Below are positions 2,194 to 56,572 of a DNA stretch of 64,000 bases, piece by piece. The DNA comes from a bacterium (GTDB lineage Bacteria; Patescibacteriota; Patescibacteriia; 2-12-FULL-60-25), in the NCBI GenBank assembly GCA_021796435.1, contig JAJYXM010000016.1, positions 182,625-246,624 of the forward strand. The letters are read 5' to 3'. A model generated the notes under the pieces. The model was given only the letters and a program-made list of their open reading frames with translations. It was not told the DNA's origin and searched no databases. Positions within the stretch are counted from its first letter, which is position 1; the number at the start of each line of letters is the position of its first letter. The translations under genes and the position numbers were made by a program.

Positions 2194-2205
2194 CGACCAA
2201 CACAT

Positions 2206-25075: not shown

Positions 25076-25224
25076 GAAGCTCTAGGCGTAAAAAATAGCT
25101 TTTTATATCCAGACAAGGGTAGTTGGTGATCGGGCTTGCATGTTCGGCAGAAAGACATGGGGATATGCCGAAGAAGTAAGTCCTTTTTTTATTGTGATTG
25201 TGCTATACTTAGCGCATAAACACG

Positions 25225-25950
25225 ATGTGGGATTCTATCGTTCTGCGTTGGCAATCCTTGACCAAGGGGCAGCAGATCTTGTTGGTGGTTTTTTCGATTG
25301 CCGGCGTGCTGACATTCGGTCTTTCGTTGTATCGGATAAGCTATACGATCAGATCGCCCTTCCTGACAGACAAGCAGGCTATCTATAGCGCAAAAGAGTT
25401 GATAGGTCTGACGCCTGCAGAAGAGACTGCAAAACAGAAGCGCTTGGATACCGACGGGGATGGATTATCCGATTGGGATGAAGAGAACACCTATCATACG
25501 AATCCGAATTCCCGAGATTCCTGTGGCGACGGTATGCCCGACAATGTCCGTGTAGCGACCGGCAAAAATTTGGTTTGCGGACAGCTCGGCAATCTGGATT
25601 ATTCAGGCGTAGCAGGCGGATCATCATCTGCTTTCGATGGTTTGCCGCAAACTGCCCAGCCGACGGATCAAGGTAGCCAGGATGCCGCGTTCCTGATGCA
25701 CGTGGCAACCAGCGGAACCAGCGCTATGGGCGTGGATTCTTCCGGCGCTGCTACTACTTTGCCGCGTGATCCGGTGATGATCAGACAGCTACTTAAGGGT
25801 CAAGTAAGTGACGCGGAGTTGAACGCCTTAAGTGATGACGACCTGCTGAAGCTATACGACGATGCCATGGCCAAAATCAAGAACAACGGCCAAACCGAAA
25901 ACGCCGGTGGCACAAGTTCTACTCCGGCCGTTCAAAACAACAACCAATAA
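25225..25950 (+). CDS. membrane-anchored protein with a thrombospondin type-3-like Ca-binding repeat
   Basis: N-terminal TM helix, then LDTDGDGLSDWDEENTYHTNPNSRDSCGDGMPD (TSP3/dockerin-like D-x-D-x-D-G motifs). Its stop lies 4 nt before the giant gene's start. Confidence 0.6.
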   Translation: MWDSIVLRWQSLTKGQQILLVVFSIAGVLTFGLSLYRISYTIRSPFLTDKQAIYSAKELIGLTPAEETAKQKRLDTDGDGLSDWDEENTYHTNPNSRDSCGDGMPDNVRVATGKNLVCGQLGNLDYSGVAGGSSSAFDGLPQTAQPTDQGSQDAAFLMHVATSGTSAMGVDSSGAATTLPRDPVMIRQLLKGQVSDAELNALSDDDLLKLYDDAMAKIKNNGQTENAGGTSSTPAVQNNNQ

Positions 25951-25953
25951 ATT

Positions 25954-28900
25954 ATGAAAGCACGTAGCGGACCATTAAGCAGCGGAGCAGCGAAAGTTGC
26001 CTTGGGAGGGGTATTGTTGGCGATCGTCGTCTTTGGCTGGCTGCCTCGTGAGGCCAAAGCGATCGTCATCGATCAGAACCCGGCAAACCAGGGTCCGGCG
26101 GCTGCAGGCATGGCAAATCTCGAAGCCTGTATTCAGATAGGCAAAGCCATAGACAGCGGTTCGTATAGTCCGACGGGAGGTTTGGTGACAGAGATCAGCG
26201 CAGTCTATAAGAATGATTGTAACTACACCCAGTTGTTGGAGATGAGGCAGGCGGAAATCGCCGGGCAATGGCAATTCGCCATTACGCGTGCCCTTTTAGG
26301 GACGTTGAATAAATTCACGCAGCAGGTCGGTCAAAACCTTGCCAACTGGGTCTTGGAGGGTGCGCACGGCAACCCTACTTTCTATAAGAAGAATTTTTGG
26401 GGCTTCCTTAAGGATGTGGGCCAAGATTTCACCAACAGATTCATAGATGACGTGGATAAACAATGGGGTTTAGGCTTGTGCCAACCGATCAGTTTGAGCA
26501 TGAAGCTGGGTATCCCGTTCGCACCTCTGCCCATAGACGAACCGGATTGTACTTTGGCTGGCGTAAGGAACGCGTTCGAGCAGACCTATAAGCAGCTTAC
26601 GCCGCACGAATTGGCGAATACGTTCATGGACGCTTTGAGGGACGGAAGGAACAATCCTTTGGAGTTCCAGCTGCGTATCAACAGCATGGCGGTCATCGGA
26701 CGCGAGGAGGCCAAGCAAGGAGCGGCACAACAAAGACAGGAGAACGCCGGAATGAACACCATGACCGTAGGTCCGCTGAGTTCTTCGATCAAGACGCCTG
26801 CCTTGATTGTCCAGCAGACGCTAGATGCACAGAATCCCGCCAAATTGATGAATGAAGTCACGCAGGCCCAGATGACTTCATATGCTTGGGAAGCGATGAC
26901 GGCGGGTCTGCAACAGCTGCCACAGATCGCGGGTATGGCTTTTTTGACTACCTTGGCTGAAGGGGCGTTGAACAAACTGTTGAATTATTGGTTCACGGAT
27001 AATTCCGAGGCGACGACGGATGTCTATCAGATAGACTTGACCAACCCCTATGCCCAGCAGAATGCGCAGCCTAAGACAGGCGATGCGACCAAAAAGATAT
27101 TCACTGACATAATCACACCCAACCTCAGAACTTCTGATGAAGTGAATTTCCTGTCGGAGATGACGGTGTGCGCGGATATGCGAGGTTACTGGAACTGCAC
27201 TTTGGATGAGGCTTTGGCGAATGCGTTGTTGGAAGGCGGTACAAATGGCGGTATTACGGTGCTCAAAGCCGCTGGAATGACGAGCGATAATATTGGGGTA
27301 CAGCCAGTCCTGCATAAGGACTGGGAGCTTATACCTATCACTGAAGCTAAAGATAACCAGGATCCGGGTTGTTTCCAGAGGTCATACTGCGCTTCCAACC
27401 TGGCTAAGCTGCGTTTTGCGCGCATCATCCCGATAGGCTGGGAACTGGCGGCCAATTCCCCTTACAACAAAAAAGTGAACGGCAAATATGTGACTCTTGA
27501 GGCGGTGATCCGCGGGTTCAATGATTGTAACGATTCAGGACAGGCTGACGCGACACATCCGTGGTGCCATCTGATCAATCCGAGTTGGGTCTTGACCGCA
27601 GTTCCGTTCAAATGCCAACTGAAAGGTTACGGGCAGATGTTGATGGCTCCTGGGATGAATGCACGTATCCAGGAGTGCACGGATTTGGTCTCATGCCTGC
27701 AACGAGACGATAAAGGCAATTGTCTGGGGGCTTATGGTTACTGCATGGCGGAAAAGACGGTTTGGCGTTTTGGTGGAGATCAGTGCGACGAAAAATACGT
27801 CAGCTGTAGGACATACACTTCGCGCAGCGACGGTCCTCATCAGGGTGATACATTATCCCTCACGCGAAATACGATAGATTACGGGGCATGTAACCAAGAC
27901 AATATCGGGTGCATGTACTATCTGACCACGCCCGACATAAGCACTTCGACAACGGGCAAATGGGTGGATAAAGCAACAGTCATCAAATCAAACGGCGTGG
28001 TCAAAGGCGCGGATATACACCAGACTCCTCGTGTCTACTTCGATTCGAGCGTGGAGTCTTGCGATGCATCGGGTAACGGTTGCACCAAGGTGCTGAAAGT
28101 GGAGCAGGGCAAACCATCATTAAACCTGATCAAGAACAGCTCGTTCGAGAATGATGATGCAAAGAATCCGGGTAAGCTGGATGGTTGGTTCAAGTTCTTG
28201 GATGGTTCGCCATATCAATATACTGCCTTCTTGGCGGATGTGGGGGATTCTAGCCGCACCGGATCGCGCGGTATCGAGGTCACCGGGTCACCTGACTACA
28301 ATACGGCTCCTTTCCAACAGGTCACGATCTATCCGTTGAGGAATTATGTATTGTCGTTCTACGCCAGGACGAATAATTCCGCGGGAACGCATAAAGCTTC
28401 AGTCAGTTTGGTCTTGAACAGAAATTTCGCGCCAGCTTTATCGCAGTCTTCCTTGGTCGCTCAGGTTGCCGGCCAGACGTATTTCAGGAGCAGCGCATGT
28501 TTGTCCAATATCTCAAGCTTAGCCGTAGGTTTCCCGTCTTTCATCAACTCCAACAACACGGTGAGCGCCGGAAGCAGTCAATTGACCGAAGAATGGCAGA
28601 GGTTCACTTGTGAGTTCGTGTCGAATGCTGACGTCACGGGAGGAAGGATTTTTGTGGGTGGAGCAGGAGCAGCCATCGAAGATGTGCAACTGGAAGAGGG
28701 CGACAAGGCTACGGATTATCTCGAGTCATTATCCAGCGGATTGAAGAGCGAATACCTTAAGTTGCCGCCGGAGGTCTATGGATGTATAGGGGACGACAAG
28801 AGCGATCGGGCAGAGTGTAAAAGCTTCGCTCGGATGTGTTCGCAGGCCGATGCGGGTTGTCAGGGATATACGGATTCTTCAGGCGCCGATCCGACGGAAG

Positions 28901-31900
28901 TGCCAGCCATACTGTCGACCGGTGATTATTGTCCCAGTACCTGCGTCGGATACGCGGAATATCTGAAGATGCCGTCAGCTTTTGATCTGGTGAAGACGGG
29001 CGCGGCGAATCCGGCGACCGATCCTTTGACCGATCCGAATGACGACACGACAGCCAATTTCGTTCCGAAATACGCGGCACAGTGCAGTGCTGATCAGGTG
29101 GGTTGTGAAGCGTTCACCAATCTGGAGGCGGCTGCCGGTGGAGGAGAGGATACCGTGTACTTGACCTATGCACGAGCTTGCCAAAAGCCGAATGATGATT
29201 CCACTACGTATTTCACCTGGGAAGGATCGGAGACGACTGGCTATCAATTGCGAACCTGGAGCCTGATCAAGGAGACGAATCAGACTCTGCCGGCACCGAA
29301 TCTCGTGGGTGCACCGAAGATACTGCGCAAAGCCGGACCTGACGGAATCCTCAAGGATCCCGCGGACTGCGATGAGCAGAGCTGGAAAGACGGAGCAGAT
29401 CTGGATTGTCGCCAGATATACGACGAGAACGGACAGGCTTATTACCGCTATTTCTCGCAGACCATAGTCTCGAGCGCGTCATGCGTGGACTACCGCAAGA
29501 ACAACCAGAATGCGGATGACTGCGTGAAGACGGGTGGGGATTATCGCCAAGCCACGAATGATTGCGTGTATCATATACTCGCCAGCGAAAGCAATACGTG
29601 TACAGCGGCGAATGCCGGTTGTCGCGCATACCTTGGTTCGCGTGGCCGTAATACGGCGAACGTATTCTATGAAGCGTTCAAGGATGCGGCCGGCAACGTG
29701 CCGGTGTATACCGCCCAATCTTCAGTGACGCTCAAGGTCTCGACTGAAGCTCTTTTGGTGGGGGATTACTCATTGAAGATCGACAACAGCAACACGAGCC
29801 AAGCGACGGTGGTGAATGTAGATTTCGATGCGACGACGGGTACGCTCTATACGGTCAGTTTCTGGTATAAGACGACGAACGCTACGGCTAAGACCGTGAC
29901 GATAAATTTGGGCCCGACTGCCGTCGGGACGTTCAAGACGTCGAGCGACTGGAAACGTTTCGAGATCGGACCGTTCAGGGCGACAAAAGGCGGAAAGGCG
30001 ACTTTGAGTTGGACCGGCATGCCGAATACATCTTATCTGGATGAGATAAGCATCCAGCGGTTGCAGGACGTGTCGTATGTGGTCAAGGATTCCTGGACCA
30101 TCCCTGTGGAGTGCGATCAGACGCCGGAAGGCATTCCGCAAGCCCAGGCCATGTTGGGTTGTCGTGAATATCGCGATAGGGACGGAAATAGCGTAACCGT
30201 AAGACAATTCTCGAGGTTGTGTAGATACGATCTGATCGGTTGCAAGGCTTTCATCGACACACGCAATAGCGACGATCCGTATTATCAATCCTTTACCCTG
30301 AAAGGGTTGGCCTATCCTCAAACCGCCAAACCGTGGGACACGTTGTATGCCGGAGACGATCAGGTCTATCGTCCAGCCGACAGATTCGTCTACGCCGTGG
30401 ATGATCCGTCTTTCCGTTGTGACCAGAGCCAGATGTCTTGCAGAGCATTCGGTAAACAGAAGTTCGACAATCTGGGTATCCCGACCTCGACATATGAGAC
30501 GGTGTATCTGAAGGACGACATCACGAAATACGTCGATCAAGGCAATGAACCGCAGATGTTGTGCCGACCGAGCGAACTTTTCTGCGATAAATTCGTCAGC
30601 GGTCCTGTCACTTCGTATTTCCGTGCGCCGTTGCAGCATATATGCGAATGGCAAGATAAGGTGGAATTGGAGGCATCCACCAATCCGTCATATCCAAAGG
30701 GACAATATTCCGGATGGTTCGTGAGAGGTTCATCTCCTCCGCAACCATGCTATCCGGAGAAGCTGAGCGGAGGACAGACTTTCCTTGGCGAGTTCTCGGG
30801 TTCTCCGAATTATCGGGGCACGACTTCGGCTTGTCCGGCTGACCAGTCCGAATGTACGGAATTCCGTGATACGAACGACCATTCCGACCAATCGCACCCG
30901 TTAGGTAAACCGTATTTCTTCATCAACAATAATCTATTAGATAAATCCAGCTGCGGCGGCAAAGTCGATCCTTTGTCAGGTTGTGTGTTGTTCCGTGACA
31001 TGAACGATAGCAGTTTGCCGTTCAGCGCAAAGGCGACTTACGCCAAATCGCATGCCGAGGGGGACAGTGCGACTGATGCGGTGAATTGCGTGAGTGATCC
31101 GAATAATCAGTATTGCAAGAAAGCGGGGACATGTACGGATATAAAACTGATCAGTTGCGCCAAGAACAGCAGTGGGAATAACGGCTATGATTGTTCATCC
31201 GATCCGTACGTGGCGCCATGGTTAAAAACAGTGCCCGGTTCGTCCTGTACTAGCGATGCCGATTGTTCTAATGATACTTCCGACGACCATACGAACGGCT
31301 TCATCGCGACCGGCCGCTGTTCGGTGAACGACTCCAACCTGGTGATCAAGGTAAAGCTGGATCGAGACTGCCAGGCTTGGTTGGGCTGTTCGACGCAAGA
31401 GACGGTGTTCGACCCGGCGCAAGGCAAGTATGTGGATTTGTGCACGGCATTGTCTTTATGCGACCAGTTGAGCGGCGCTACCGACAGCCAGTTCTGTAAT
31501 CACTACATTGACCGAAAATCAGATGCCACACAAGCGGTGATGCGACAAGGACAGTTCTTGGATCAGGCGACATATATAGATCGTCCGGTCACGTTCACGG
31601 ATTGGGATTATTCTGGCTATACCCTGCCTAACCATTATCAGATACCGGATATACAAAGCCGCCGCATGGCTTTCGAGCTGATGAATAAACGACTGGGTGA
31701 TTTGCAGCCTGGTTTGACCAAAGAATATCGTGACGTGGCAGCGGTGCCATTCAATAAAGCCAAGACGATCACTGATTTGAAGTTCAGCTATCTTAATTTG
31801 TGCCAAGTCGATCAGACAGGCGTCGTCGGATATTACATACCGAAGGCTTCTGGCAGCCCGGATTATTGTTATGTCGCGATCGACAAGGCCTATTCGCAGT

Positions 31901-34900
31901 TGCTTTTGGCCAACGTCAATGAAAGGAACGTACAGAGCGTATCCACGGCTTTCTCGCAGAATGCGCAGGTAAAGGACGATCCGACCTTGGCGCAAGCTTT
32001 TCCGGGTTCGACTTGTCGTGCATATCCGGATGCAGCTTCGCCATACCCGAATAAGTTCGTGTCCGAGTGGGATTACGTGAAGGATCCGCCGCAACCTACA
32101 CAGTATCTTTCGGGTTTTGAAGGTGTAGCGCTATGCGCATACGGTGAGGACTGCGATTGCAGCTATAGGCGTCTGTCTTATGGCGGAGTGTATAAATACT
32201 ACGCGCCATATAGCGGCGTAACTCCGTCGGGCGTGTGTGTCGGTGGCAGCCGTAACGGCGAATCGTGCACACCGGGCGCTACGGGCGGGCAGGGCGAAAG
32301 CTCAAGCACCACGACATCTTCAGGCAATTCGGAGTATGCCGGTAACGATTGCGGAATGGGAGGAGCCTGCAGCGAGCTGCAGTCAAGCTCCTTGATCCGT
32401 GGCATCTTCGGTAACTGCCTGCAGTATGATTATTCGAGGACGCTGGGTAATACCCAGGATATGCATCCGTGCTTGGTCTGGAGTCCGACACCGGTGCTGC
32501 AAGGCGAGCAGGACGTGTATCATTACCAGCCGACTGCAGGATACCTGCCGCCGATGAATTCAGGCCAGTATTATTGCTTGTCCAGCGCCAAGGAACCAAG
32601 GGTTTTGAAGGCACAGGTGCCGAATCAGTTGACCAATTGGGAGTTCAGTTTCAAAGGTGCGGCTGGAGGCGCTATAACAACGGCGCAGGCGCCACCCGAC
32701 AGGCCGGGTTACATAGTCGCCAAAGCCCCAGGTAAGATGAGTTTCTTCTGGTATCATGAATGTTTCGTACAGGATCCGGCTGCGATTTCAGACAGCAATG
32801 TGCCTTTACCCTTCAGCTTACCTAAGGAAGGTGCGCTGATAGGTTCGGGTGATTATAAGAATTGGTACGAAAATAATTGCGGCTGGGGCGCCACATTGGA
32901 CGGGGCTGCTGTCCGTGGTACGGATAGCGGAGCGGCATGCGGAAGCGTGCGTCAGGGTTTTGGCGCACAGGCATATGCGGAAGATACGCAGGCAGGACGT
33001 TGGGTCACGACAGGACAAGGCAAGAACAAGAATTATGCCGAATATTTCGTCGAGTTCAACGACAAGACTTGGACTGAATGGCTGCTGAATAAAGCCGTTC
33101 CCACTACGGATGAAATCGCAAAAGCCTCACTTGAGAATAATTTCACCTATTTCGACTTCCGCCCGATGTATAAGACGGGTGCCGGAGGGACCTGGTCGTG
33201 CGGCCAGTCCGGTTGGTGGGTGGATGAGTTCCCGACGGAAGGCGGAACGGCAGGAGTGGATAAGGCCGGGAATGAGATCGTGAAGCGTGAATTGGCGGAT
33301 ATGAAACGCCTGACTCCGCAGGGCGCTGGTTTCCTGAAGAACGAAGATGGTTCGCATCTTTTGAGGCTGCCGTGTAAAGACAAGACGCATTCGGATCCAA
33401 CAAACGGTGACGGCTACTGCTATTACAAGTATTGGGAAATGGATTTCCATGCGGATGGCCAGACGAAGTTCCGGAGATTCAACGAATCAATCGGCGGACC
33501 GAGAGAGCTTAAATCGGACGACGTGTTCTATGCAGAAAGCGAAGGCGGAAAACCGTATTTCGCCATCCGTGCCATGTTCGAGGATACTGTTCCGGAAGAT
33601 AACCTGCTTGATGAAGACATGTCGGATCCTTCGGGCAGCCAATTGGCCGGTCCGTTCAAGTTCGTCGGTTGGTGGGTGACGGCTAGTTTCCCTGGAGCTA
33701 CGAATGCGCGATATATCTACATGTATATGGATGTGGGTCACGCCGATATCTGCAAGGAAGTGGGCAGCGTGGCCTCGGATAACGGAGGGGACACTGCAGC
33801 CTTCACGGATCGCGTGTGGGATCAGGGCACATATGCCATACCCAGCTTGGGCTTTAACGTCGGTACGACCAATAATCCATTCGGTGCCGCGAAACATACC
33901 AAGCAGATAGGTGCGGAACCCCTCATCATGTCCGGTACATTGGACAAGACGGCATACAAAGTCGGCGTAAATAAGCCTACATTCCTTTCGTCCGGTGCTG
34001 AATATTTCCGTTTGGGTGATGCGCCAACAGGCAATTGGGCATGGCTAAGCGATATCTTCGCTAAGATATACAAGATATACCGTTGGAACGAACAACCGGT
34101 CACCAAGACGAGCTGGGCTTGCGTCGCAGGACCGAGACAAGGCGAACGTTGTCCGGATTTGACCACGTACTACGATAAGACCAAGAAAGATGCTTTCAAC
34201 AATAACGCGTGCAATCCGTTGTTGGATAAGAGCTGCACGGGTGGTTTCGCGATCTGGGATCAAGGCGCAACTTCTTCGGCTAAATATTGTGGCTATCAGG
34301 GTAATTGCAATCCGGAGCTGATAGACATACGCGATCCGAGCTTGGCTTTCTGTAATTCATTGTCCGGAGTCAATGCTGGCCTGGCTTGCGGGCCGGGTGG
34401 TGGGGTCAATATCGGTCAATATGATGTGTGCCACGCTGGTCCGGTCAAGAGCGTAAACGGCAAACTGACTCCACAGTTCACGTCATGCGGCATGAGCGAT
34501 TATTGGGAGCAACTGGCGGATACGAATCTTTACTCCTTGAAGGACGATGCCTGTGCGGGTTTGACCGGTACTAAATTGACCCAATGTACTGCCGAAATAG
34601 CAGCGATAACGAAGGATTGCACGGATAATAGCTTTACGGATCAGAACGGAAGCCCCTGTAAACATCTGGTCCGTAGCAGCGCGGCACAAGTCGGAGCTTT
34701 CTGGTGCGCGAATGACGGTGTGCTTTTCCCTGACGCAACGCCAGCCTGGTGCCGTAAGCCAAGCGGAGGAAAACCCTCGACGGATTGTCCGGTGCAAGTT
34801 GTCGGAAGCTGTGGATCGAACGGTTACTGTACGAACGAAGGTTACGAACACGTTCGTTGCACATCAGGGGGTGAATGCTCTTTCACATGGAAGAATTGGT

Positions 34901-37050
34901 GGTACAACGATATGAGCAAGCCATCAGGTATGCCAGATAAACCCATGCCGTATCCAGCAAGGCATGCGACATTTGACAACTGGAATGATACGTTGTCGGT
35001 AGCTTTAAAGGATTGGGCCTATGGGGACTACACAACGTGGCCGACGAGCGGTTCAGTGAATGTTAATTATCCATTGGGAGGTCATGCTATCGATAGCGGG
35101 GCATTTACCTTCGGTGTATATCCGAGGTGGATGACTGGAGGTATTAATAATGGTCTCGATGGGTATAAGGGCACTGATGGGCAGGATGCGACCAGGGATA
35201 TAGGTGGTAAGGATTTCGCTTATACCACCGATAGTCCAATCTATACTAGATATTATATTCAGAAGCCGGGTTCAATCGGTGAGGCTGCCTCACGTTTTCC
35301 TGGAACGTATATTATTGCTTCTGTGACTAAGGTAGGTAGTACCAGTATCACCGAAGGTTCGAATAATGTCTTTATACCTGGGCATTGTGAAAGGTTGCCG
35401 GTCGATCCCACCTCCTGTACCGAATATAGTGATATCGGAAATAAAGATACTGACGGTTGTTATGAGGATAAGGGGCCCTATGATGTTCCTTATTTCAGCC
35501 AGACAAACGGAGGTACTAGATGGATTGGTCCGGTAACTAAGCCGGGCATCTGCGAACTTGGCGCCAAAGAAGGCAGCTTCTGTCTGGATAACCAAGACTG
35601 CAAACCGGCCTGGGTGACGGATGACCAACAATGGATCGCTTCATTCATGTGCCAACCTGTCACGAATGTGAGCGGACAGTCGAGCAGCGGTACGTTACCT
35701 GATTACAAGACGGCGACTGGCCCGAGCTTCGATTGCAATGATCTAGAGGGTGATCCGAATTCGACTGATCTCGATAAGGACAACAACTCCTGTACGCATA
35801 AGGCCGGATACCAGCCGCGCGTGGATTTGTGCGGGTTGGATCCGAAACGCACGGAGTGTCTGACAGGCGTGGCGCAACGCGATAATCCGACGAGCGGCGG
35901 TTATATAGCTTCGTATGACGCCAAGAACGGATTGCCTCCAACGGATGTCACGGCTGGATTGCATCTTCCGACTTATCTGGCGGAACAGAACGGACAACCT
36001 CAAGCTGACTACGCATCCGATTTCACTTACATCTCTTACTATGCGCCGAAGCCACCGCGGATAGCTGCGCCGGACACGAATCAGCAATGTGCGGCAGCGG
36101 GTCAGTGTCCGATCGCGGCGGTCGATGCCTTCAACTTGGAGGGGACGACCGAGGGCAAGGTAGCTTACGTGGGCGGGCAGGCTATCGTGACCATGCGTTT
36201 CTACGCCTGGGCGGCGGATAATCAGATGGGTCTGAAGGAAATGACTATCGATTGGGGCGATGGTACGCAGCAGAAGTTGGATGATGTGCGCATGAAGAAC
36301 AAGAAGCCCTTCTGCGGCGTGAGCAAGGAGTGCGAGTTCGTGCCAGGCCTGACCTGCAGTTCGGATAACGATTGTCCGCCAGCGGCTGGCAGGTGTGCCG
36401 ATACGGGAGTATGTAACCGCAAGCCGGAGGTCTCGTGTCACACTGACCAGGATTGCAGGGCCGGTTCGACAGACGATGATACCTGTAATATCCGTGTCGG
36501 ATTCGGATCAAGCAACGATGCATGCGAACAGAACTATTTCGAATTCACGCACGTCTATACCTGTGACAAGACGCAGCAAGCTGACACGACTTACGCCTGT
36601 TTGACCGCGGGGGGACGTTGTTCGAATGACAATACGCGTATTTGTGGAGGCGCCTTCAAATGCATCGCTGGTGACACCTGCATACAGAATATGGCACAAC
36701 CTGGTGGTTGCTTCGACGCGACGAATGCCGCATGTCGATATACGCCACGCATCCTGATCAAGGATAATTGGGGTTGGTGTACTGGAGAGTGTCGAGTGCA
36801 GGATTTGGGTGGCGGTAAGCTTGGCTTGGGCTTCAAAGACGCGGATGGTGTAGCGCGGAACAACATCCTATTGCCGAATGGCGGATGCTATGACGCCAGT
36901 GGAATCTATCTGAATACTAATCCAACATTGCCATTGAATGTCGCGCAGTCGCAAGACAAGACGAACATGTGCAATCCGGATAACAGCGGGTCGTTCTACA
37001 GGCCATGGATCGTGTTCAAAGGCGCGCTACAGTTGGGAGTAGCGCCATAG
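25954..37050 (+). CDS. giant cysteine-rich cell-surface protein (3698 aa) with CBM-like and PKD-like segments
   Basis: Uninterrupted 11.1-kb ORF with an N-terminal signal-anchor (LGGVLLAIVVFGWLP). Two segments resemble galactose-binding-like / CBM4_9 modules (NLIKNSSFENDD...GKLDGWFKF... and ...YSLKIDNSN...WKRFEIGPF...). A PKD-like motif (IDWGDGT) and many paired Cys (about 190) are present. Confidence 0.85.
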   Translation: MKARSGPLSSGAAKVALGGVLLAIVVFGWLPREAKAIVIDQNPANQGPAAAGMANLEACIQIGKAIDSGSYSPTGGLVTEISAVYKNDCNYTQLLEMRQAEIAGQWQFAITRALLGTLNKFTQQVGQNLANWVLEGAHGNPTFYKKNFWGFLKDVGQDFTNRFIDDVDKQWGLGLCQPISLSMKLGIPFAPLPIDEPDCTLAGVRNAFEQTYKQLTPHELANTFMDALRDGRNNPLEFQLRINSMAVIGREEAKQGAAQQRQENAGMNTMTVGPLSSSIKTPALIVQQTLDAQNPAKLMNEVTQAQMTSYAWEAMTAGLQQLPQIAGMAFLTTLAEGALNKLLNYWFTDNSEATTDVYQIDLTNPYAQQNAQPKTGDATKKIFTDIITPNLRTSDEVNFLSEMTVCADMRGYWNCTLDEALANALLEGGTNGGITVLKAAGMTSDNIGVQPVLHKDWELIPITEAKDNQDPGCFQRSYCASNLAKLRFARIIPIGWELAANSPYNKKVNGKYVTLEAVIRGFNDCNDSGQADATHPWCHLINPSWVLTAVPFKCQLKGYGQMLMAPGMNARIQECTDLVSCLQRDDKGNCLGAYGYCMAEKTVWRFGGDQCDEKYVSCRTYTSRSDGPHQGDTLSLTRNTIDYGACNQDNIGCMYYLTTPDISTSTTGKWVDKATVIKSNGVVKGADIHQTPRVYFDSSVESCDASGNGCTKVLKVEQGKPSLNLIKNSSFENDDAKNPGKLDGWFKFLDGSPYQYTAFLADVGDSSRTGSRGIEVTGSPDYNTAPFQQVTIYPLRNYVLSFYARTNNSAGTHKASVSLVLNRNFAPALSQSSLVAQVAGQTYFRSSACLSNISSLAVGFPSFINSNNTVSAGSSQLTEEWQRFTCEFVSNADVTGGRIFVGGAGAAIEDVQLEEGDKATDYLESLSSGLKSEYLKLPPEVYGCIGDDKSDRAECKSFARMCSQADAGCQGYTDSSGADPTEVPAILSTGDYCPSTCVGYAEYLKMPSAFDLVKTGAANPATDPLTDPNDDTTANFVPKYAAQCSADQVGCEAFTNLEAAAGGGEDTVYLTYARACQKPNDDSTTYFTWEGSETTGYQLRTWSLIKETNQTLPAPNLVGAPKILRKAGPDGILKDPADCDEQSWKDGADLDCRQIYDENGQAYYRYFSQTIVSSASCVDYRKNNQNADDCVKTGGDYRQATNDCVYHILASESNTCTAANAGCRAYLGSRGRNTANVFYEAFKDAAGNVPVYTAQSSVTLKVSTEALLVGDYSLKIDNSNTSQATVVNVDFDATTGTLYTVSFWYKTTNATAKTVTINLGPTAVGTFKTSSDWKRFEIGPFRATKGGKATLSWTGMPNTSYLDEISIQRLQDVSYVVKDSWTIPVECDQTPEGIPQAQAMLGCREYRDRDGNSVTVRQFSRLCRYDLIGCKAFIDTRNSDDPYYQSFTLKGLAYPQTAKPWDTLYAGDDQVYRPADRFVYAVDDPSFRCDQSQMSCRAFGKQKFDNLGIPTSTYETVYLKDDITKYVDQGNEPQMLCRPSELFCDKFVSGPVTSYFRAPLQHICEWQDKVELEASTNPSYPKGQYSGWFVRGSSPPQPCYPEKLSGGQTFLGEFSGSPNYRGTTSACPADQSECTEFRDTNDHSDQSHPLGKPYFFINNNLLDKSSCGGKVDPLSGCVLFRDMNDSSLPFSAKATYAKSHAEGDSATDAVNCVSDPNNQYCKKAGTCTDIKLISCAKNSSGNNGYDCSSDPYVAPWLKTVPGSSCTSDADCSNDTSDDHTNGFIATGRCSVNDSNLVIKVKLDRDCQAWLGCSTQETVFDPAQGKYVDLCTALSLCDQLSGATDSQFCNHYIDRKSDATQAVMRQGQFLDQATYIDRPVTFTDWDYSGYTLPNHYQIPDIQSRRMAFELMNKRLGDLQPGLTKEYRDVAAVPFNKAKTITDLKFSYLNLCQVDQTGVVGYYIPKASGSPDYCYVAIDKAYSQLLLANVNERNVQSVSTAFSQNAQVKDDPTLAQAFPGSTCRAYPDAASPYPNKFVSEWDYVKDPPQPTQYLSGFEGVALCAYGEDCDCSYRRLSYGGVYKYYAPYSGVTPSGVCVGGSRNGESCTPGATGGQGESSSTTTSSGNSEYAGNDCGMGGACSELQSSSLIRGIFGNCLQYDYSRTLGNTQDMHPCLVWSPTPVLQGEQDVYHYQPTAGYLPPMNSGQYYCLSSAKEPRVLKAQVPNQLTNWEFSFKGAAGGAITTAQAPPDRPGYIVAKAPGKMSFFWYHECFVQDPAAISDSNVPLPFSLPKEGALIGSGDYKNWYENNCGWGATLDGAAVRGTDSGAACGSVRQGFGAQAYAEDTQAGRWVTTGQGKNKNYAEYFVEFNDKTWTEWLLNKAVPTTDEIAKASLENNFTYFDFRPMYKTGAGGTWSCGQSGWWVDEFPTEGGTAGVDKAGNEIVKRELADMKRLTPQGAGFLKNEDGSHLLRLPCKDKTHSDPTNGDGYCYYKYWEMDFHADGQTKFRRFNESIGGPRELKSDDVFYAESEGGKPYFAIRAMFEDTVPEDNLLDEDMSDPSGSQLAGPFKFVGWWVTASFPGATNARYIYMYMDVGHADICKEVGSVASDNGGDTAAFTDRVWDQGTYAIPSLGFNVGTTNNPFGAAKHTKQIGAEPLIMSGTLDKTAYKVGVNKPTFLSSGAEYFRLGDAPTGNWAWLSDIFAKIYKIYRWNEQPVTKTSWACVAGPRQGERCPDLTTYYDKTKKDAFNNNACNPLLDKSCTGGFAIWDQGATSSAKYCGYQGNCNPELIDIRDPSLAFCNSLSGVNAGLACGPGGGVNIGQYDVCHAGPVKSVNGKLTPQFTSCGMSDYWEQLADTNLYSLKDDACAGLTGTKLTQCTAEIAAITKDCTDNSFTDQNGSPCKHLVRSSAAQVGAFWCANDGVLFPDATPAWCRKPSGGKPSTDCPVQVVGSCGSNGYCTNEGYEHVRCTSGGECSFTWKNWWYNDMSKPSGMPDKPMPYPARHATFDNWNDTLSVALKDWAYGDYTTWPTSGSVNVNYPLGGHAIDSGAFTFGVYPRWMTGGINNGLDGYKGTDGQDATRDIGGKDFAYTTDSPIYTRYYIQKPGSIGEAASRFPGTYIIASVTKVGSTSITEGSNNVFIPGHCERLPVDPTSCTEYSDIGNKDTDGCYEDKGPYDVPYFSQTNGGTRWIGPVTKPGICELGAKEGSFCLDNQDCKPAWVTDDQQWIASFMCQPVTNVSGQSSSGTLPDYKTATGPSFDCNDLEGDPNSTDLDKDNNSCTHKAGYQPRVDLCGLDPKRTECLTGVAQRDNPTSGGYIASYDAKNGLPPTDVTAGLHLPTYLAEQNGQPQADYASDFTYISYYAPKPPRIAAPDTNQQCAAAGQCPIAAVDAFNLEGTTEGKVAYVGGQAIVTMRFYAWAADNQMGLKEMTIDWGDGTQQKLDDVRMKNKKPFCGVSKECEFVPGLTCSSDNDCPPAAGRCADTGVCNRKPEVSCHTDQDCRAGSTDDDTCNIRVGFGSSNDACEQNYFEFTHVYTCDKTQQADTTYACLTAGGRCSNDNTRICGGAFKCIAGDTCIQNMAQPGGCFDATNAACRYTPRILIKDNWGWCTGECRVQDLGGGKLGLGFKDADGVARNNILLPNGGCYDASGIYLNTNPTLPLNVAQSQDKTNMCNPDNSGSFYRPWIVFKGALQLGVAP

Positions 37051-37172
37051 GGAGACTTCGATATGGGCACGATGAATCGTGCCCACCGCATCTTTCGTCG
37101 TTCCCGTGAAGACGGGAATCCAGAAAGGGCCTGGATCCCCCGCCTGCGCGGAGGATGACGATGAACGAATGT

Positions 37173-37200
37173 AAGGGCGGGTTTTAAACCCGCCTTTTGG
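37173..37200 (+). terminator. intrinsic terminator after the giant gene
   Basis: gggcgggttt-taa-aacccgcc followed by ttttgg. Confidence 0.6.
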
Positions 37201-37217
37201 GTCCATAAAAAGCGAAG

Positions 37218-37262: not shown

Positions 37263-37997
37263 TCAGCCGGAGACGACTTTCAGAGCTGTCGGCTCGGTGT
37301 GGCTTTGGCGTTTGAGCGAGCGGCGTGAGGAGAGAAGCTCGGCGGTGATCAGTCCGGTCATACGCCCGGCGATGTATGCTTGGATGGCGCCCTTGATCGT
37401 ATCTTGGACGGCGCGCAGATCAGAGAAATCGGTGGCAAGCAATAGTCGCAGTGCTTCAGGCGAGAACTTGGGTGCCGGGCGTTTGTCCGGTAGCGCGTAA
37501 CTTTGGCGGATGACTTCGCATAACTTGGGCTGGTCCTTGGTGCGTTCTCGCCAGGCTGGCCACGTAAGCAGCGGAGCGCATTCTTCGGCGAGTCGAGGGA
37601 TCCAAAGGTCAGCCAGACGCGTTACGTCTTCGGGCTCGATAGCCACCGCGACAAGAGGTACGTGCAAAAGATGACGTAGGATGGTGCGCTGGGCGCCGGC
37701 GTGAAGTGAGGCGCCTTGCAGAAAGAGGAAAGAGGTGTCTTCACCTTCTTCGAATTTGAGCGGGTCGATCTTGGGATCGCTGCAGATGCAGACGCTACCT
37801 GTCCTGTTGATTTGTCGCGCCAGCCTACGGAAGAACGAAGCGAGTTCGAGGCGATTGCCTTGTCGTATGACGATCGGCTGGATGCGCCGTTCTTTGCTTT
37901 GTATCGAAGCTGTTCCGAAGAGTTGTTGCATGGCGGGTGAATCCATCACGACAGGGAACGGGTCGCGTAGCTTGAGGCGTGCTTTTTTCGCGGACAT
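37263..37997 (-). CDS. degenerate sigma-54 interaction (bEBP AAA+) domain protein lacking Walker A and GAFTGA
   Basis: Matches NtrC-family central-domain landmarks in order: DSPAMQQLF (ESPAMQ..F), FLFLQGASLH..QRTILRHL (LFLDEIGE....Q..LLRVL), WRERT.D (LRER.ED) and PEALRLLLATDFSDLRAVQDTI (PEAL..L..Y.WPGNVRELEN.I). The GESGTGKE position reads IRQGNRLE. Confidence 0.55.
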   Translation of the reverse strand: MSAKKARLKLRDPFPVVMDSPAMQQLFGTASIQSKERRIQPIVIRQGNRLELASFFRRLARQINRTGSVCICSDPKIDPLKFEEGEDTSFLFLQGASLHAGAQRTILRHLLHVPLVAVAIEPEDVTRLADLWIPRLAEECAPLLTWPAWRERTKDQPKLCEVIRQSYALPDKRPAPKFSPEALRLLLATDFSDLRAVQDTIKGAIQAYIAGRMTGLITAELLSSRRSLKRQSHTEPTALKVVSG

Positions 37998-40627: not shown

Positions 40628-40939
40628 ATGAACGTGAATACGCGTGAAATGATAGGTGTCCCGGTCAAGACGAAAGCAGGTCTGCTCTTGGGTAGGTTGA
40701 AAAGCCTGGATTTCGATGCTGACACGGGCAGGCTGGATGCCTTGCGCGTAAAAGTTAGAGGTCCGGTGCCGGGTCTGTTGGATGATGAGCTTCTGATAAC
40801 TTGGGTGCAAGTTATTTCGATGGACGATAAGGAGATAACCGTAGCCGATAATTTCGCGGCGCAAGGTGCGGCTAAAGTGCGTAAATGGTTCGCCTTGTTG
40901 AGCGGTTCGCGGCCAGTGGTCACTTCATACCGTACATGA
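40628..40939 (+). CDS. PRC-barrel domain protein
   Basis: 103 aa with a PRC-barrel-like pattern (MIGVPVKTKAGLLLGRLKSLDFDADTGRLDAL.V). Its stop overlaps the next start (ATGA). Confidence 0.55.
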   Translation: MNVNTREMIGVPVKTKAGLLLGRLKSLDFDADTGRLDALRVKVRGPVPGLLDDELLITWVQVISMDDKEITVADNFAAQGAAKVRKWFALLSGSRPVVTSYRT

Positions 40940-41850
40940 ATACCCGTGAGATCAGGGACGCTGTCCTACGTACGCTGTGTTTCCACGCGGCCTGGCGGCA
41001 TCTTCCGACGCGCGTCGAGCTGCTTTCGACTTTGGACATGCGCGGAGCTGCAGCCGCGGAGGCAGAGGACGTCCTGATCGTGCTGGATAACCTTAAGGCA
41101 GAATCGGTCGTGACGGAGCGAGATGGTCGGATCGGTTTGGCCGAGTTTTTCGATGCTTTATCGGAGTCGGCGTTGTCATATGAGCGTTTCCAACCTAGGA
41201 AAAGGAGACGTGCGATGAAGGTCGCGGCGTGGCTATCTCGTTGGAAGGCCGTCAGGTTCGTGGCTTTGGCGAATACCTCGGCATTGGGTGACGCGAGAGA
41301 CGACGGAGATTTGGATTTTTTCGTCGTCGTGCACCATGGGTCGCTTTGGTCGACACGGTTATTTTTGGGTGGTGTGTTCAAGCTGTTGGGCATGCTGCCG
41401 AGCGATAGGCGTACTCGAGATACTGTCTGCCTGTCTTATTTCATAACCGATAAGTCATTGGATCTGTCGCATCATATGTTGGAAGGCGACGATCCGTATT
41501 TCAGATATTGGTTCATGTCATTGTTTCCGTTATTCGATGACGGGATCGGAGAGAAAATCTGGGCAGCGAACAAGGAGGTATTGGCGCGACATCCTGCTGC
41601 AGGCGGCTGGATTGCTCCGCCGGATTTCGCAGTATCTCCAGCTTTTCGCCTTCCTTTGCCCATGTGGGCTGAAGGTTTGGCACGTGGATTCCAGATGCGT
41701 TGGTTCCCGCCGAAGATAAAGGAATCGATGAATAAGGATGTGCGTGTGATGGTCGGGGACGATGTATTGAAACTGCATGTCACGGATAGACGCGAAAAAT
41801 ATCGTGAGGATCATCGAATCTTATGCCGCAAATACGGAATAGCTCCATAG
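40936..41850 (+). CDS. nucleotidyltransferase-fold domain protein
   Basis: hG[GS]-x10-DhDh pattern (ANTSALGDARDDGDLDFFVVV). The internal ATG at 40936 was chosen, translationally coupled to the upstream gene. Confidence 0.5.
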   Translation: MNTREIRDAVLRTLCFHAAWRHLPTRVELLSTLDMRGAAAAEAEDVLIVLDNLKAESVVTERDGRIGLAEFFDALSESALSYERFQPRKRRRAMKVAAWLSRWKAVRFVALANTSALGDARDDGDLDFFVVVHHGSLWSTRLFLGGVFKLLGMLPSDRRTRDTVCLSYFITDKSLDLSHHMLEGDDPYFRYWFMSLFPLFDDGIGEKIWAANKEVLARHPAAGGWIAPPDFAVSPAFRLPLPMWAEGLARGFQMRWFPPKIKESMNKDVRVMVGDDVLKLHVTDRREKYREDHRILCRKYGIAP

Positions 41851-54959: not shown

Positions 54960-54960
54960 T

Positions 54961-56076: not shown

Positions 56077-56139
56077 CAAAACATCCTCTTGCGAGGATGT
56101 CTTGTATGGTGGACGGCAGAGGAGTCGAACCTCTGACCT
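56073..56139. repeat. direct repeat copy A (hairpin plus tRNA-Val 3' portion)
   Basis: ATAACAAAACATCCTCTTGCGAGGATGTCTTGTATGGTGGACGGCAGAGGAGTCGAACCTCTGACCT repeats at 56462-56528 with 2-3 mismatches. Confidence 0.75.
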
Positions 56140-56174
56140 CCCCGGTGTCCACCGGGGCGCTCTAATCAATCATC
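56107..56174 (-). pseudogene. partial duplicate of tRNA-Val (D-loop to CCA end, lacking the 5' acceptor strand)
   Basis: The minus strand reads GATTAGAGCG-CCCCGGTGGACACCGGGG-AGGTCAGAGGTTCGACTCCTCTGCCGTCCACCA. The T-arm and acceptor 3' strand are identical to the intact tRNA-Val. The anticodon-arm region is altered but keeps GAC. No complementary 5' acceptor strand is present. Confidence 0.6.
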
Positions 56175-56461: not shown

Positions 56462-56528
56462 ATAACAAAACATCCTCTTGCGAGGATGTTTTGCATGGTG
56501 GACGGCAGAGGAGTCGAACCTCTGACCT
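56462..56528. repeat. direct repeat copy B (hairpin plus tRNA-Val 3' portion)
   Basis: See copy A. This copy continues into the intact tRNA-Val. Confidence 0.75.
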
Positions 56529-56572
56529 TCACAATGTCAATGTGACGCTCTAACCAACTGAGCTAGCCGTCC
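56496..56572 (-). tRNA. tRNA-Val (anticodon GAC), CCA-encoded
   Basis: The minus strand reads GGACGGCTAGCTCAGTTGGTTAGAGCGTCACATTGACATTGTGAAGGTCAGAGGTTCGACTCCTCTGCCGTCCACCA. Cloverleaf has a 7-bp acceptor, D-arm, anticodon loop TTGACAT and T-loop TTCGACT. Confidence 0.85.

What the first reader, a model, noticed from the sequence alone, without database searches (positions are those of the whole stretch)
25225..37050. Operon of a TSP3-repeat membrane protein and an 11.1-kb gene encoding a 3698-aa cysteine-rich surface protein
One uninterrupted ORF makes up about 17% of the window. It has an N-terminal signal-anchor, two segments resembling galactose-binding-like/CBM4_9 modules, a PKD-like motif (IDWGDGT) and about 190 cysteines, often in CxnC spacings typical of disulfide-rich extracellular modules. 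Its start codon is 4 nt after the stop of a small membrane protein carrying thrombospondin-type-3 Ca-binding repeats. Upstream lie DUF3006-VanW and Hsp20 genes. Giant surface proteins of this kind may mediate attachment to a host or partner cell in small-genome bacteria. Most of its length has no recognisable domain.
Basis: partly seen in the sequence, partly recalled or inferred. Interest (0 to 1): 0.6.

Follow-up and report, generated by a model that had tools for sequence, protein, structure and literature searches.

The report
Giant disulfide-rich surface protein pair
A tiny-genome (Patescibacteria/CPR) bacterium spends about 1% of its DNA on a 400-kDa secreted protein held together by some 71 disulfide bonds; it is always encoded next to a small calcium-binding membrane protein, the pair is conserved across a whole class of these bacteria, and it is probably a cell-surface contact structure of unproven function.

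Summary
The 3698-aa ORF (25954-37050, +) is real and intact. It is not a chimera: homologs are collinear across its whole length, and 46 other species-level genomes carry an intact 2527-3784-aa version. The family is large (1,041 50%-identity clusters at E<=1e-30) and confined to Patescibacteria, mainly Uhrbacteria, Falkowbacteria and Magasanikbacteria.

The biology is nevertheless stronger than claimed. Cysteine is by far the most conserved residue, and all 47 family members have an even cysteine count once the signal peptide is removed (p about 7e-15). That implies full disulfide pairing.

The upstream TSP3 membrane protein lies directly next to the giant gene in about 70 of 83 loci, far beyond the reach of any other synteny, so the pair is the unit.

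One roughly 160-aa cassette (aa 3008-3165) is hypervariable. In 8 of 46 divergent loci a VirB6/TrbL-like gene follows directly.

Best reading: a membrane-tethered, glycan-binding surface stalk for cell contact. Function remains inferred.

The parts
25201..25209 (+). Possible extended -10 promoter element (TGcTATACT), 16 nt before the ATG of the TSP3 gene
   Evidence: Read directly from the sequence. The consensus scan did not call it. Low confidence.
25225..25950 (+). Partner gene: a 241-aa single-pass membrane protein. TM helix at about aa 17-37 (nt 25273-25335); TSP3-type Ca-binding repeat DTDGDGLSDWDE at aa 75-95 (nt 25447-25509) followed by a degenerate second repeat; low-complexity linker; conserved C-terminal helix.
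   Evidence: Pfam TSP3_bac 26.5 bits against cut-off 25. A homolog sits immediately upstream of the giant gene in about 70 of 83 loci, usually 1-20 nt away. Family consensus: DTDGDGLxDYDE + DSDSDGxxDxxE + GxDPNCP.
25954..37050 (+). Giant gene: 3698 aa; mature product about 398 kDa, pI 4.85, 142 Cys
   Evidence: Intact orthologs in 46 loci. 1,041 family clusters at E<=1e-30.
25954..26061 (+). Signal peptide-like N-terminus (aa 1-36: MKAR..., 16-aa hydrophobic core, ...EAKA|I)
   Evidence: The only segment with Kyte-Doolittle above 1.5. All 46 orthologs start the same way and end in AxA-type motifs. No signal-peptide predictor was available, so cleavage is inferred.
26119..26994 (+). Cys-poor, predicted helical region (aa 56-347)
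   Evidence: AlphaFold model 1 shows long helices, pLDDT mostly 40-65. Moderately conserved; C176 and C199 conserved. No Pfam or PDB match.
27106..27753 (+). Family-signature domain (aa about 385-600): the most conserved part, with motifs GxWNC, NQDPxC, K485-x-R487, PIGWELAA (493-500), HPWCHL
   Evidence: pLDDT 80-95 over aa 390-560. Invariant K485, R487, G495-A500 in 47 sequences. No significant Pfam or PDB match. Its fold was not searched in isolation.
27754..28116 (+). Disulfide-hairpin segment (aa 601-721) with C-x6-C-x2-[FY] motifs
28117..28728 (+). Jelly-roll module 1, CBM4_9/CBM16-like (aa about 722-925)
   Evidence: Pfam CBM_4_9 E=3.8e-8, found in 6 of 13 members. Foldseek matches CBM16, CBM4 and CBM22 at E 1e-6 to 1e-4, TM(target) 0.7. 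PDB profile hits to CBM16.
28729..29646 (+). Cys-hairpin-rich region with a beta-rich subdomain (aa 926-1231)
   Evidence: All Cys conserved in >=80% of members. Strands at aa 1036-1182 with pLDDT 65-90. No database match.
29647..30078 (+). Jelly-roll module 2, CBM22/CBM4-like (aa about 1232-1375)
   Evidence: Family profile against PDB: Xyn10C CBM22 E=6.3e-9, laminarinase CBM4 1e-5, hyaluronate lyase CBM 2.6e-5. Residue limits were read from the alignment. Not modelled.
30079..32613 (+). Conserved, Cys-rich region dark to databases (aa 1376-2220)
   Evidence: Nearly all Cys conserved. No Pfam family recurs in 47 members. No PDB hit.
32614..34974 (+). Less conserved, indel-rich region (aa 2221-3007)
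   Evidence: Alignment occupancy 0.3-0.7. Still under purifying selection against the closest relative, pN 0.09-0.16.
34975..35448 (+). Hypervariable cassette (aa about 3008-3165) between highly conserved flanks, with anchor motifs RFPG, FIPGHCE and PY
   Evidence: 35% identity against 72-88% elsewhere relative to L004; pN 0.43; dN/dS >=0.35. Comparable length in only 11 of 46 orthologs (168-289 aa); the rest have 0-65 aa. pLDDT below 40.
35449..36048 (+). Conserved Cys-rich linker (aa 3166-3365)
36049..37047 (+). Conserved C-terminal domain (aa 3366-3698): a PKD-like beta-sandwich (FYAWA...IDWGDGT...FxHxYxC...PRIxIxDNWGWC) decorated with disulfide-rich insertions
37064..37201 (+). Terminator-like hairpins after the stop codon: 37064-37085, and 37173-37197 followed by a U-run
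   Evidence: Free energies -15.8 and -16.5 kcal/mol, z -3.0 and -2.6. The next gene is convergent (37263-37997, minus strand).

Best explanation
The two genes encode a cell-surface complex of a Patescibacteria (Uhrbacteria-like) cell.

Shown:
- The giant product has a Sec-type signal peptide and no other membrane segment or known wall-sorting signal.
- Its 142 cysteines are all paired (about 71 disulfides), giving a rigid, non-repetitive protein of about 400 kDa.
- It contains two CBM4/16/22-type glycan-binding jelly rolls and a PKD-like C-terminal beta-sandwich.
- It is always encoded directly after a single-pass membrane protein with extracytoplasmic TSP3 calcium-binding repeats.

Inferred:
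- The TSP3 protein tethers the conserved N-terminal part of the giant protein (helical region plus signature domain) to the cytoplasmic membrane, probably in a Ca2+-dependent way.
- The disulfide-stapled middle acts as a stalk that crosses or decorates the wall, with the jelly rolls binding polysaccharide.
- The distal end (hypervariable cassette plus PKD-like domain) contacts the surface of a host or partner cell, the cassette tuning specificity.
For: Real, selected gene:
- Intact 2527-3784-aa orthologs in 46 loci.
- Collinear homologs across all tile borders.
- pN 0.157 against saturated pS 0.74 relative to the closest relative.
- 1,041 family clusters at E<=1e-30.

Secreted and disulfide-bonded:
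- Signal-like N-terminus in all members.
- Cysteine identity 0.74, against 0.39 or less for any other residue; 85 of 142 Cys conserved in >=80% of members.
- Even Cys count in 47/47 mature sequences, p=7e-15.

Binding modules:
- CBM_4_9 Pfam hit.
- Foldseek CBM16/4/22 matches.
- Second CBM by PDB profile, E=6e-9.
- PKD-like fold.

Partner:
- TSP3 gene adjacent in about 70 of 83 loci, whereas Hsp20, VanW and SMC are conserved in only 15-19.
- 3-nt spacer in the window.

Distal variability: cassette at aa 3008-3165.

Precedent: large Cys-rich extracellular proteins of CPR were proposed to act in attachment (PMC4736985).
Against: - No expression, localisation or binding data exist.
- Physical interaction between the TSP3 protein and the giant protein rests on synteny only.
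- Typical adhesins are repetitive, fast-evolving and patchily distributed. This protein has no internal repeats, is strongly conserved, and lies among core housekeeping genes such as rpoBC, gyrA, SMC, NusA, YidC and GroEL.
- Hypervariability of the cassette rests on one close pair plus indel patterns; no close strains were found.
- Ligand-binding residues of the CBM-like modules were not examined.
Confidence: 0.5

Rival explanations
1. A structural envelope component: an S-layer-like coat or wall scaffold that every cell of this lineage needs, regardless of any host. The TSP3 protein would act as its Ca2+-dependent membrane anchor.
For: - Class-wide conservation, with no genome contributing more than one locus.
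- Core-chromosome location.
- Strong purifying selection along nearly the whole length.
- Non-repetitive architecture.
- Acidic pI of 4.85, compatible with Ca2+-mediated assembly.
Against: - Known S-layer proteins are usually cysteine-poor and much smaller (general knowledge).
- No SLH or other known wall-binding domain was found.
- A clade-specific hypervariable cassette fits recognition better than lattice formation.
Confidence: 0.2
2. The extracellular adhesin or contact arm of a type IV secretion-like, conjugation-related machine of Patescibacteria, which so far lacks an identified adhesin.
For: - In 8 of 46 complete, divergent loci the giant gene is followed within 3-38 nt (242 nt in one) by a polytopic membrane protein with 8-10 hydrophobic segments.
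- That protein matches Pfam TrbL/VirB6: L080 32.6 bits against a cut-off of 25.9; L047 20.1 and L074 18.6 over the same profile span.
- PMC12102498 reports that VirB6 is widespread in Patescibacteria and essential in the one species tested, that monoderm T4SS rely on surface adhesins, and that no PrgB-like adhesin was detected in Patescibacteria.
Against: - No VirB6-like gene lies in the window or next to the gene in the near clade.
- No VirB4 lies within those loci; the 800-aa upstream gene is LeuRS.
- A family profile of the VirB6-like protein finds no PDB VirB6.
- The adjacency covers only 17% of complete loci.
Confidence: 0.12
3. A secreted polysaccharide-processing enzyme whose catalytic domain is novel, for example the signature domain at aa 385-600, with the CBMs targeting it to substrate.
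For: - CBM4/9/16/22 modules are normally appended to glycoside hydrolases or lyases; the PDB matches are xylanases, laminarinase, endoglucanase and hyaluronate lyase.
- The signature domain has invariant charged residues K485, R487 and E497.
Against: - No catalytic family was detected by Pfam, NCBIfam or PDB profiles in any of 13-47 members.
- Only one invariant acidic residue occurs in the signature domain.
- A 400-kDa disulfide-stapled body with an obligate membrane partner is atypical for a free enzyme.
Confidence: 0.08
4. An artefact: a pseudogene, frame-restored assembly error or chimeric misassembly.
For: Some assemblies show the gene split. L002 and L003/L046 have 3-4 fragments, and SMC is also split in L002, which suggests long-read indel errors.
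Against: - 46 independent intact ORFs.
- Collinearity across the whole length.
- Saturated synonymous but low non-synonymous divergence.
- Perfect even-Cys parity.
- The identical TSP3 protein, with the giant gene called beside it, occurs on a separate Logan contig (L001; 4 contigs carry it).
Confidence: 0.01

Closest known systems
Large cysteine-rich extracellular proteins of CPR Peribacteria (Anantharaman et al. 2016, PMC4736985)
   Same: CPR bacterium. Large, signal-peptide-bearing, strongly Cys-enriched proteins without functional annotation, proposed to give rigidity or mediate attachment.
   Different: - Those average 1,655 aa with about 7% Cys. They form a multi-gene cluster, are strain-variable, and show weak similarity to Myxococcus Cys-rich repeats.
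- This one is 3,698 aa with 3.8% Cys. It appears single-copy, is class-wide conserved and is paired with a TSP3 membrane protein.
- Homology between the two was not tested.
Fibrillar or giant adhesins of monoderm bacteria (for example the 7651-aa Mobiluncus adhesin, PMC10619420; PrgB of pCF10)
   Same: Very large secreted surface proteins with a stalk, binding modules and internal cross-links that give rigidity.
   Different: - Those have tandem Ig-like repeats and LPXTG or other C-terminal anchors.
- Here there are no internal repeats, no LPXTG and no C-terminal hydrophobic tail.
- Rigidity comes from about 71 disulfides, and anchoring is presumably N-terminal through a separate membrane protein.
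FhaB-domain giant proteins of Patescibacterium danicum, class ABY1 (PMC11809585)
   Same: Giant putative exoproteins (4,939-6,025 aa) in the same class of Patescibacteria, proposed to mediate host adhesion.
   Different: - Those carry FhaB (COG3210) domains, and no full-length homologs were found in other Patescibacteria.
- This family has no FhaB domain and has more than 1,000 cluster-level relatives.
CBM4_9 / CBM16 / CBM22 carbohydrate-binding modules
   Same: Two modules match by Pfam, by PDB profile and by predicted fold.
   Different: They sit in a non-enzymatic, Cys-rich giant protein. Ligand and binding-site residues are unknown, and the two copies are not detectably similar to each other.
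Bacterial TSP3-repeat proteins (Pfam PF18884; e.g. the cell-cell cohesion protein MtsD, NF047639)
   Same: The partner protein carries the DxDxDGxxDxxE calcium-binding repeat.
   Different: It has only one or two repeats on a 200-280-aa single-pass membrane protein. The NCBIfam MtsD score is 20.6 against a cut-off of 800, so it is not an MtsD ortholog.

Membership tests
CBM_4_9 (PF02018) / galactose-binding-like jelly roll | Sequence match above the Pfam gathering score | tested here: met
   aa 724-823, 34.2 bits against 25.9. 6 of 13 family members also match.
CBM_4_9 (PF02018) / galactose-binding-like jelly roll | Beta-jelly-roll fold | tested here: met
   Foldseek matches to CBM16, CBM4 and CBM22 at E 1e-6 to 1e-4, TM(target) about 0.7. 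The second module was matched by PDB profile, CBM22 at E=6e-9.
CBM_4_9 (PF02018) / galactose-binding-like jelly roll | Carbohydrate binding through an aromatic-lined cleft | not testable with these tools
   No coordinates or ligand data were available.
PKD domain | Sequence match to Pfam PKD models | tested here: not met
   0 of 47 C-terminal domains match at E<=0.1.
PKD domain | PKD-type beta-sandwich fold with a WDFGDG-like motif | tested here: inconclusive
Bacterial TSP3 repeat (PF18884), partner protein | DxDxDGxxDxxE calcium-binding repeat above the gathering score | tested here: met
   26.5 bits against 25. One or two repeats are conserved across 68 partner proteins.
Fibrillar adhesins (stalk of tandem repeat domains + adhesive domain + wall anchor) | Tandemly repeated stalk domains | tested here: not met
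   Self-BLASTP found nothing. TRF found nothing. Tile-against-self phmmer scored no more than 2.4 bits.
Fibrillar adhesins (stalk of tandem repeat domains + adhesive domain + wall anchor) | LPXTG or another C-terminal sorting signal | tested here: not met
   No LPXTG-type motif near the C-terminus and no C-terminal hydrophobic segment.
S-layer proteins | SLH or another known wall-anchoring domain; low cysteine content | tested here: not met
   No such Pfam domain in 13 full-length members. Cys is 3.84%. Lattice formation itself is not testable here.
Diversity-generating retroelement (DGR) target | Template/variable repeat pair and a reverse transcriptase nearby | tested here: not met
   No direct repeat in the 64-kb window touches the gene. 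None of the 41 larger window ORFs scanned against Pfam is a reverse transcriptase. The rest of the genome was not seen.
T4SS-associated surface adhesin (PrgB-like role) | Encoded within or next to a T4SS gene cluster (VirB4, VirB6, VirD4) | tested here: inconclusive
   A VirB6/TrbL-like gene lies directly downstream in 8 of 46 divergent loci. None lies in the window or the near clade, and no VirB4 lies in those loci.
Phage tail fibre / receptor-binding protein | Match to phage protein families and a phage gene context | tested here: not met
   PHROGs gave no hits. The neighbours are housekeeping genes. The NCBIfam GTA_spike_fiber hit is sub-threshold, 23.2 against 36, and coincides with the jelly roll.

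The most novel reading that the evidence does not exclude
The TSP3 membrane protein and the giant disulfide-stapled protein are the missing extracellular contact arm of the Patescibacteria type IV secretion-like machinery in class ABY1 (Uhrbacteria, Falkowbacteria and relatives). That machinery was found essential for epibiotic growth in the one species tested, and no adhesin has been identified for it. In the deepest-branching members the pair is still co-transcribed with a VirB6/TrbL-like channel protein.
Probability: 0.12. Interest if true: 0.85.

Novelty: new variant of a known kind. Interest (0 to 1): 0.55.

Why it matters
Patescibacteria/CPR make up a large share of bacterial diversity. 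They are thought to live attached to other cells, yet outside Saccharibacteria the molecules that make the contact are unknown.

This is a class-wide conserved, apparently single-copy module of about 400 kDa. It takes about 1% of a roughly 1.2-Mb genome, is under strong purifying selection, and is about 85% invisible to domain and structure databases. It comes with clear experimental handles:
- an obligate membrane partner;
- two glycan-binding modules;
- 71 predicted disulfides;
- a single hypervariable cassette.

That makes it a concrete target for metaproteomics, cryo-ET and recombinant-domain work on how uncultured ABY1-class bacteria build their surface or recognise hosts. It also poses a biochemical question: how does a minimal cell, often from anoxic groundwater, oxidatively fold a protein with 71 disulfides?

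Tried and rejected
- **Whole-protein homology search.** It timed out and was replaced by three tiles.
- **Internal repeats.** Self-BLASTP, TRF and tile-against-self phmmer all found none. The protein is therefore not a repeat-built adhesin.
- **Pfam, NCBIfam and PHROGs.** I scanned the protein itself, 13 full-length members and 47 members of three tiles. Only CBM_4_9 recurs.
- **PDB profile searches.** Tiles aa 36-730, 1400-2220 and 3300-3698 gave nothing significant. A weak SRCR (PIT54) echo at E=0.017 was not pursued.
- **Foldseek.** For the C-terminal model nothing was significant. For the N-terminal model the list is swamped by CBM hits, so the signature domain at aa 385-600 could not be searched in isolation; no structure or fold jobs remained.
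- **DGR idea for the hypervariable cassette.** No template/variable repeat in the window.
- **Strain-level cassette variation.** Two metagenome scans found no close relatives, only three distant ones. One alignment was too divergent to seed a scan.
- **Broader T4SS cluster around the VirB6-like gene.** The 800-aa upstream gene is LeuRS. The 387-aa and 412-aa neighbours have no PDB relatives. The VirB6-like profile finds no PDB VirB6.
- **Disulfide-forming or sortase genes in the window.** None among the 41 larger ORFs scanned against Pfam.
- **Consensus promoter/terminator scan.** It did not call signals around the pair. Hairpins after the stop codon were confirmed by folding.
Full report
**1. 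The observation**

The window holds one uninterrupted ORF at 25954-37050 (+) of 3698 aa, which is 17.3% of the window. Directly upstream lies a 241-aa ORF at 25225-25950. Its TAA stop is separated from the giant ATG by 3 nt.

- The giant protein has a single hydrophobic segment, at the N-terminus.
- A CBM_4_9 domain lies at aa 724-823 (34.2 bits against a cut-off of 25.9).
- The small protein has a TM helix and a TSP3_bac repeat (26.5 bits against 25).
- VanW (with PG_binding_4) and Hsp20 lie upstream.

Two details do not hold:
- The protein has 142 cysteines (3.84%), not about 190.
- DUF3006 is sub-threshold only (17 bits against 32.3).

**2. Is it a real gene?**

Yes. Tile searches found relatives that are collinear with the query across every tile border. 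For example, P0006 covers query aa 113-2215, P0009 covers 844-2813 and P0015 covers 1301-3694. That excludes a concatenation of unrelated ORFs.

A scan of one genome per GTDB species found 87 relatives. Of the 80 loci kept, 46 contain an intact 2527-3784-aa ORF. An exhaustive profile search of 1.84 billion cluster representatives found 1,622 relatives at E<=1e-3 and 1,041 at E<=1e-30. The best 150 are nearly all 2,500-4,463 aa long or are fragments.

Against the closest relative (L004, 74% amino-acid identity), synonymous sites are saturated (pS 0.74) while pN is 0.157. Some long-read assemblies show the gene split (L002, L003/L046). In L002 the neighbouring SMC gene is also split, which points to indel errors.

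**3. Who carries it?**

Record titles name Candidatus Uhrbacteria most often. They also name Falkowbacteria, Magasanikbacteria, and the Parcubacteria and Patescibacteria groups. PMC11809585 places BM507, its own "Candidatus Falkowbacteria"-classified genomes, in GTDB class ABY1. That the other named groups also belong to ABY1 rests on my recollection of GTDB.

The window itself is core chromosome. It carries rpoB, rpoC, YebC, RuvC, gyrA, ClpP, RbfA, SMC, NusA, YidC, GroEL, a release factor, KsgA and ValRS. In the near clade the order SMC - VanW - Hsp20 - TSP3 - giant - NusA - YidC is conserved.

**4. The pair is the unit**

A homolog of the TSP3 membrane protein lies immediately upstream of the giant gene in about 70 of 83 loci, usually 1-20 nt away. 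Hsp20, VanW and SMC are detectable in only 15-19 loci.

The partner family has this layout: a short, often positively charged N-terminus; one TM helix followed by a PF motif; the repeats DTDGDGLxDYDE and DSDSDGxxDxxE plus GxDPNCP; a low-complexity linker; and a conserved C-terminal helix.

Stable hairpins follow the giant stop codon, and the next gene is convergent. An extended -10-like element precedes the TSP3 gene, but I read it by eye and the scan did not call it. A two-gene transcription unit is therefore likely but not shown.

**5. Anatomy of the giant protein**

A 47-sequence full-length alignment shows three zones:
- a conserved body at aa 100-2200;
- an indel-rich zone at aa 2200-3300;
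- a conserved C-terminus at aa 3300-3698.

Cysteine is the most conserved residue type, with mean identity 0.74 against 0.39 for Trp and 0.34 or less for all others. Of the 142 cysteines, 85 are conserved in at least 80% of members.

After removing the first 45 residues, all 47 members have an even number of cysteines (binomial p=7e-15). This is strong evidence that every cysteine is disulfide-paired, giving about 71 disulfides here. The mature protein is about 398 kDa with pI 4.85. Cysteine is six-fold enriched over 15 neighbouring proteins.

A short hairpin-like motif, C-x6-C-x2-[FY], occurs nine times between aa 611 and 1640, against 2.6 expected. Otherwise there are no internal repeats at all.

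**6. Domains**

- **AlphaFold model 1** (aa 1-1200, mean pLDDT 62) shows four features: a low-confidence helical region (aa 56-347); a confident compact domain (aa 390-560, pLDDT 80-95) that holds the family-signature motifs, with K485, R487 and G495-A500 (within the PIGWELAA motif) invariant in 47 sequences; a beta-sandwich at aa about 722-925; and a beta-rich part at aa about 1036-1182.
- **Foldseek on model 1** matches only the sandwich, to CBM16, CBM4 and CBM22 at E 1e-6 to 1e-4.
- **A family profile of aa 720-1420** matches PDB CBMs in two separate places. The second is at aa about 1232-1375 (CBM22 E=6e-9, CBM4 1e-5).
- **AlphaFold model 2** (aa 2600-3698, mean pLDDT 62.6) gives a confident C-terminal domain (aa 3364-3698, pLDDT 75-95) and a disordered or low-confidence cassette.
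- **Everything else**, about 85% of the length, has no recurrent Pfam family in 13-47 members and no PDB sequence relative.

**7. A hypervariable cassette**

In 200-aa bins against L004, identity is 72-88% everywhere from aa 401 onward except aa 3001-3200; only the first 400 aa are also lower (46% and 65%). In that bin identity is 35%, pN is 0.43 and dN/dS is at least 0.35.

The divergent stretch is aa about 3008-3165. It lies between near-identical flanks and keeps a few anchor motifs (RFPG, FIPGHCE, PY). A segment of comparable length (168-289 aa) is present in only 11 of the 46 orthologs; the rest have 0-65 aa.

No DGR-type repeat touches the gene. I could not find close strains to test population-level variation. 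This point rests on limited data.

**8. A lead from distant relatives**

In 8 of 46 complete loci, the most divergent ones, the giant gene is followed by an 835-1082-aa Cys-poor protein with 8-10 hydrophobic segments. The gap is 3-38 nt, or 242 nt in one locus.

Pfam identifies this protein as TrbL/VirB6-like. L080 scores 32.6 bits against a cut-off of 25.9, and two others score below threshold over the same profile span. No such gene lies in the window or beside the gene in the near clade. No VirB4 lies in those loci; the 800-aa gene upstream there is LeuRS. A family profile of the protein finds no PDB VirB6.

A 2025 survey of Patescibacteria T4SS (PMC12102498) reports four relevant points:
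- VirB6 is widespread in the phylum.
- It was essential in the one species tested.
- Monoderm T4SS rely on surface adhesins.
- No PrgB-like adhesin was detected in Patescibacteria.

This makes a T4SS-associated role an attractive minority hypothesis.

**9. Interpretation**

Shown:
- a secreted, fully disulfide-bonded, non-repetitive giant protein of about 400 kDa;
- two glycan-binding-type modules and a PKD-like terminal domain;
- obligate genetic pairing with a TSP3 calcium-binding membrane protein;
- class-wide conservation under purifying selection.

Inferred:
- The TSP3 protein tethers the conserved N-terminal part at the membrane.
- The disulfide-stapled body is a stalk.
- The variable distal end contacts a partner surface.

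The main rival is a structural envelope or S-layer-like role. Strong conservation, apparent single-copy status and core location fit that reading at least as well as they fit attachment. An enzyme with a novel catalytic domain cannot be excluded. An artefact is effectively excluded.

**10. Novelty**

Large Cys-rich extracellular proteins are already noted in CPR (Peribacteria, PMC4736985). Giant putative adhesins are noted in class ABY1 (FhaB-type, PMC11809585). The kind is therefore known.

This family appears undescribed in the literature I could search. It differs from those precedents in several ways:
- It is conserved class-wide.
- It is non-repetitive.
- It is paired with a TSP3 membrane protein.
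- It is linked to VirB6 in some lineages.

I rate it a new variant of a known kind, with interest 0.55.

Noticed in passing
L080:17396-20023, L074:18316-20997, L047:19442-21985, L057:18623-21550, L061:18824-21598, L067:18753-21425, L078:17302-19806, L031:13307-16552: In the most divergent family loci the giant gene is followed almost without a gap by a Cys-poor polytopic membrane protein of 835-1082 aa that matches Pfam TrbL/VirB6 (L080 is above the gathering score). Nothing like it lies in the window or the near clade.
   Followed up: partly
window 56073-56149 and 56462-56538: A 77-nt direct repeat (92% identical). The second copy overlaps the 3' part of tRNA-Val (56496-56572, minus strand) plus an upstream hairpin. 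The first copy looks like the 3' end of another tRNA that ARAGORN did not call.
   Followed up: no
L003 / L046 (contig_72709, 1.02 Mb Uhrbacteria MAG): The giant gene is split into four consecutive ORFs (521 + 1831 + 1323 + 614 aa) with a Transposase_mut gene just downstream. VanW and Hsp20 are inverted relative to the window. This is either long-read indel error or real decay.
   Followed up: no
loci L006, L009, L011, L013, L017 and others: Many GTDB species-representative MAGs that carry this Patescibacteria-specific gene and synteny are titled 'uncultured Gammaproteobacteria bacterium' (binchicken co-assemblies). The record titles look taxonomically wrong.
   Followed up: no
window 37263-37997 (-): A convergent 244-aa ORF with no Pfam, NCBIfam or PHROGs family. 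It is conserved at 28-42% identity only in the four nearest relatives, always between the giant gene and NusA.
   Followed up: partly
window 40885-43208 (+): A 321-aa ORF without a family, followed by a Wzy_C (O-antigen ligase-like) membrane protein, lies just after YidC. Homologs of the 321-aa ORF and of YidC lie about 8-9 kb upstream of the giant gene in several distant loci. The envelope-related block stays linked to the pair but in a different arrangement.
   Followed up: partly
window 53802-56076 (+): Two adjacent ORFs of 385 and 371 aa have no Pfam family.
   Followed up: no
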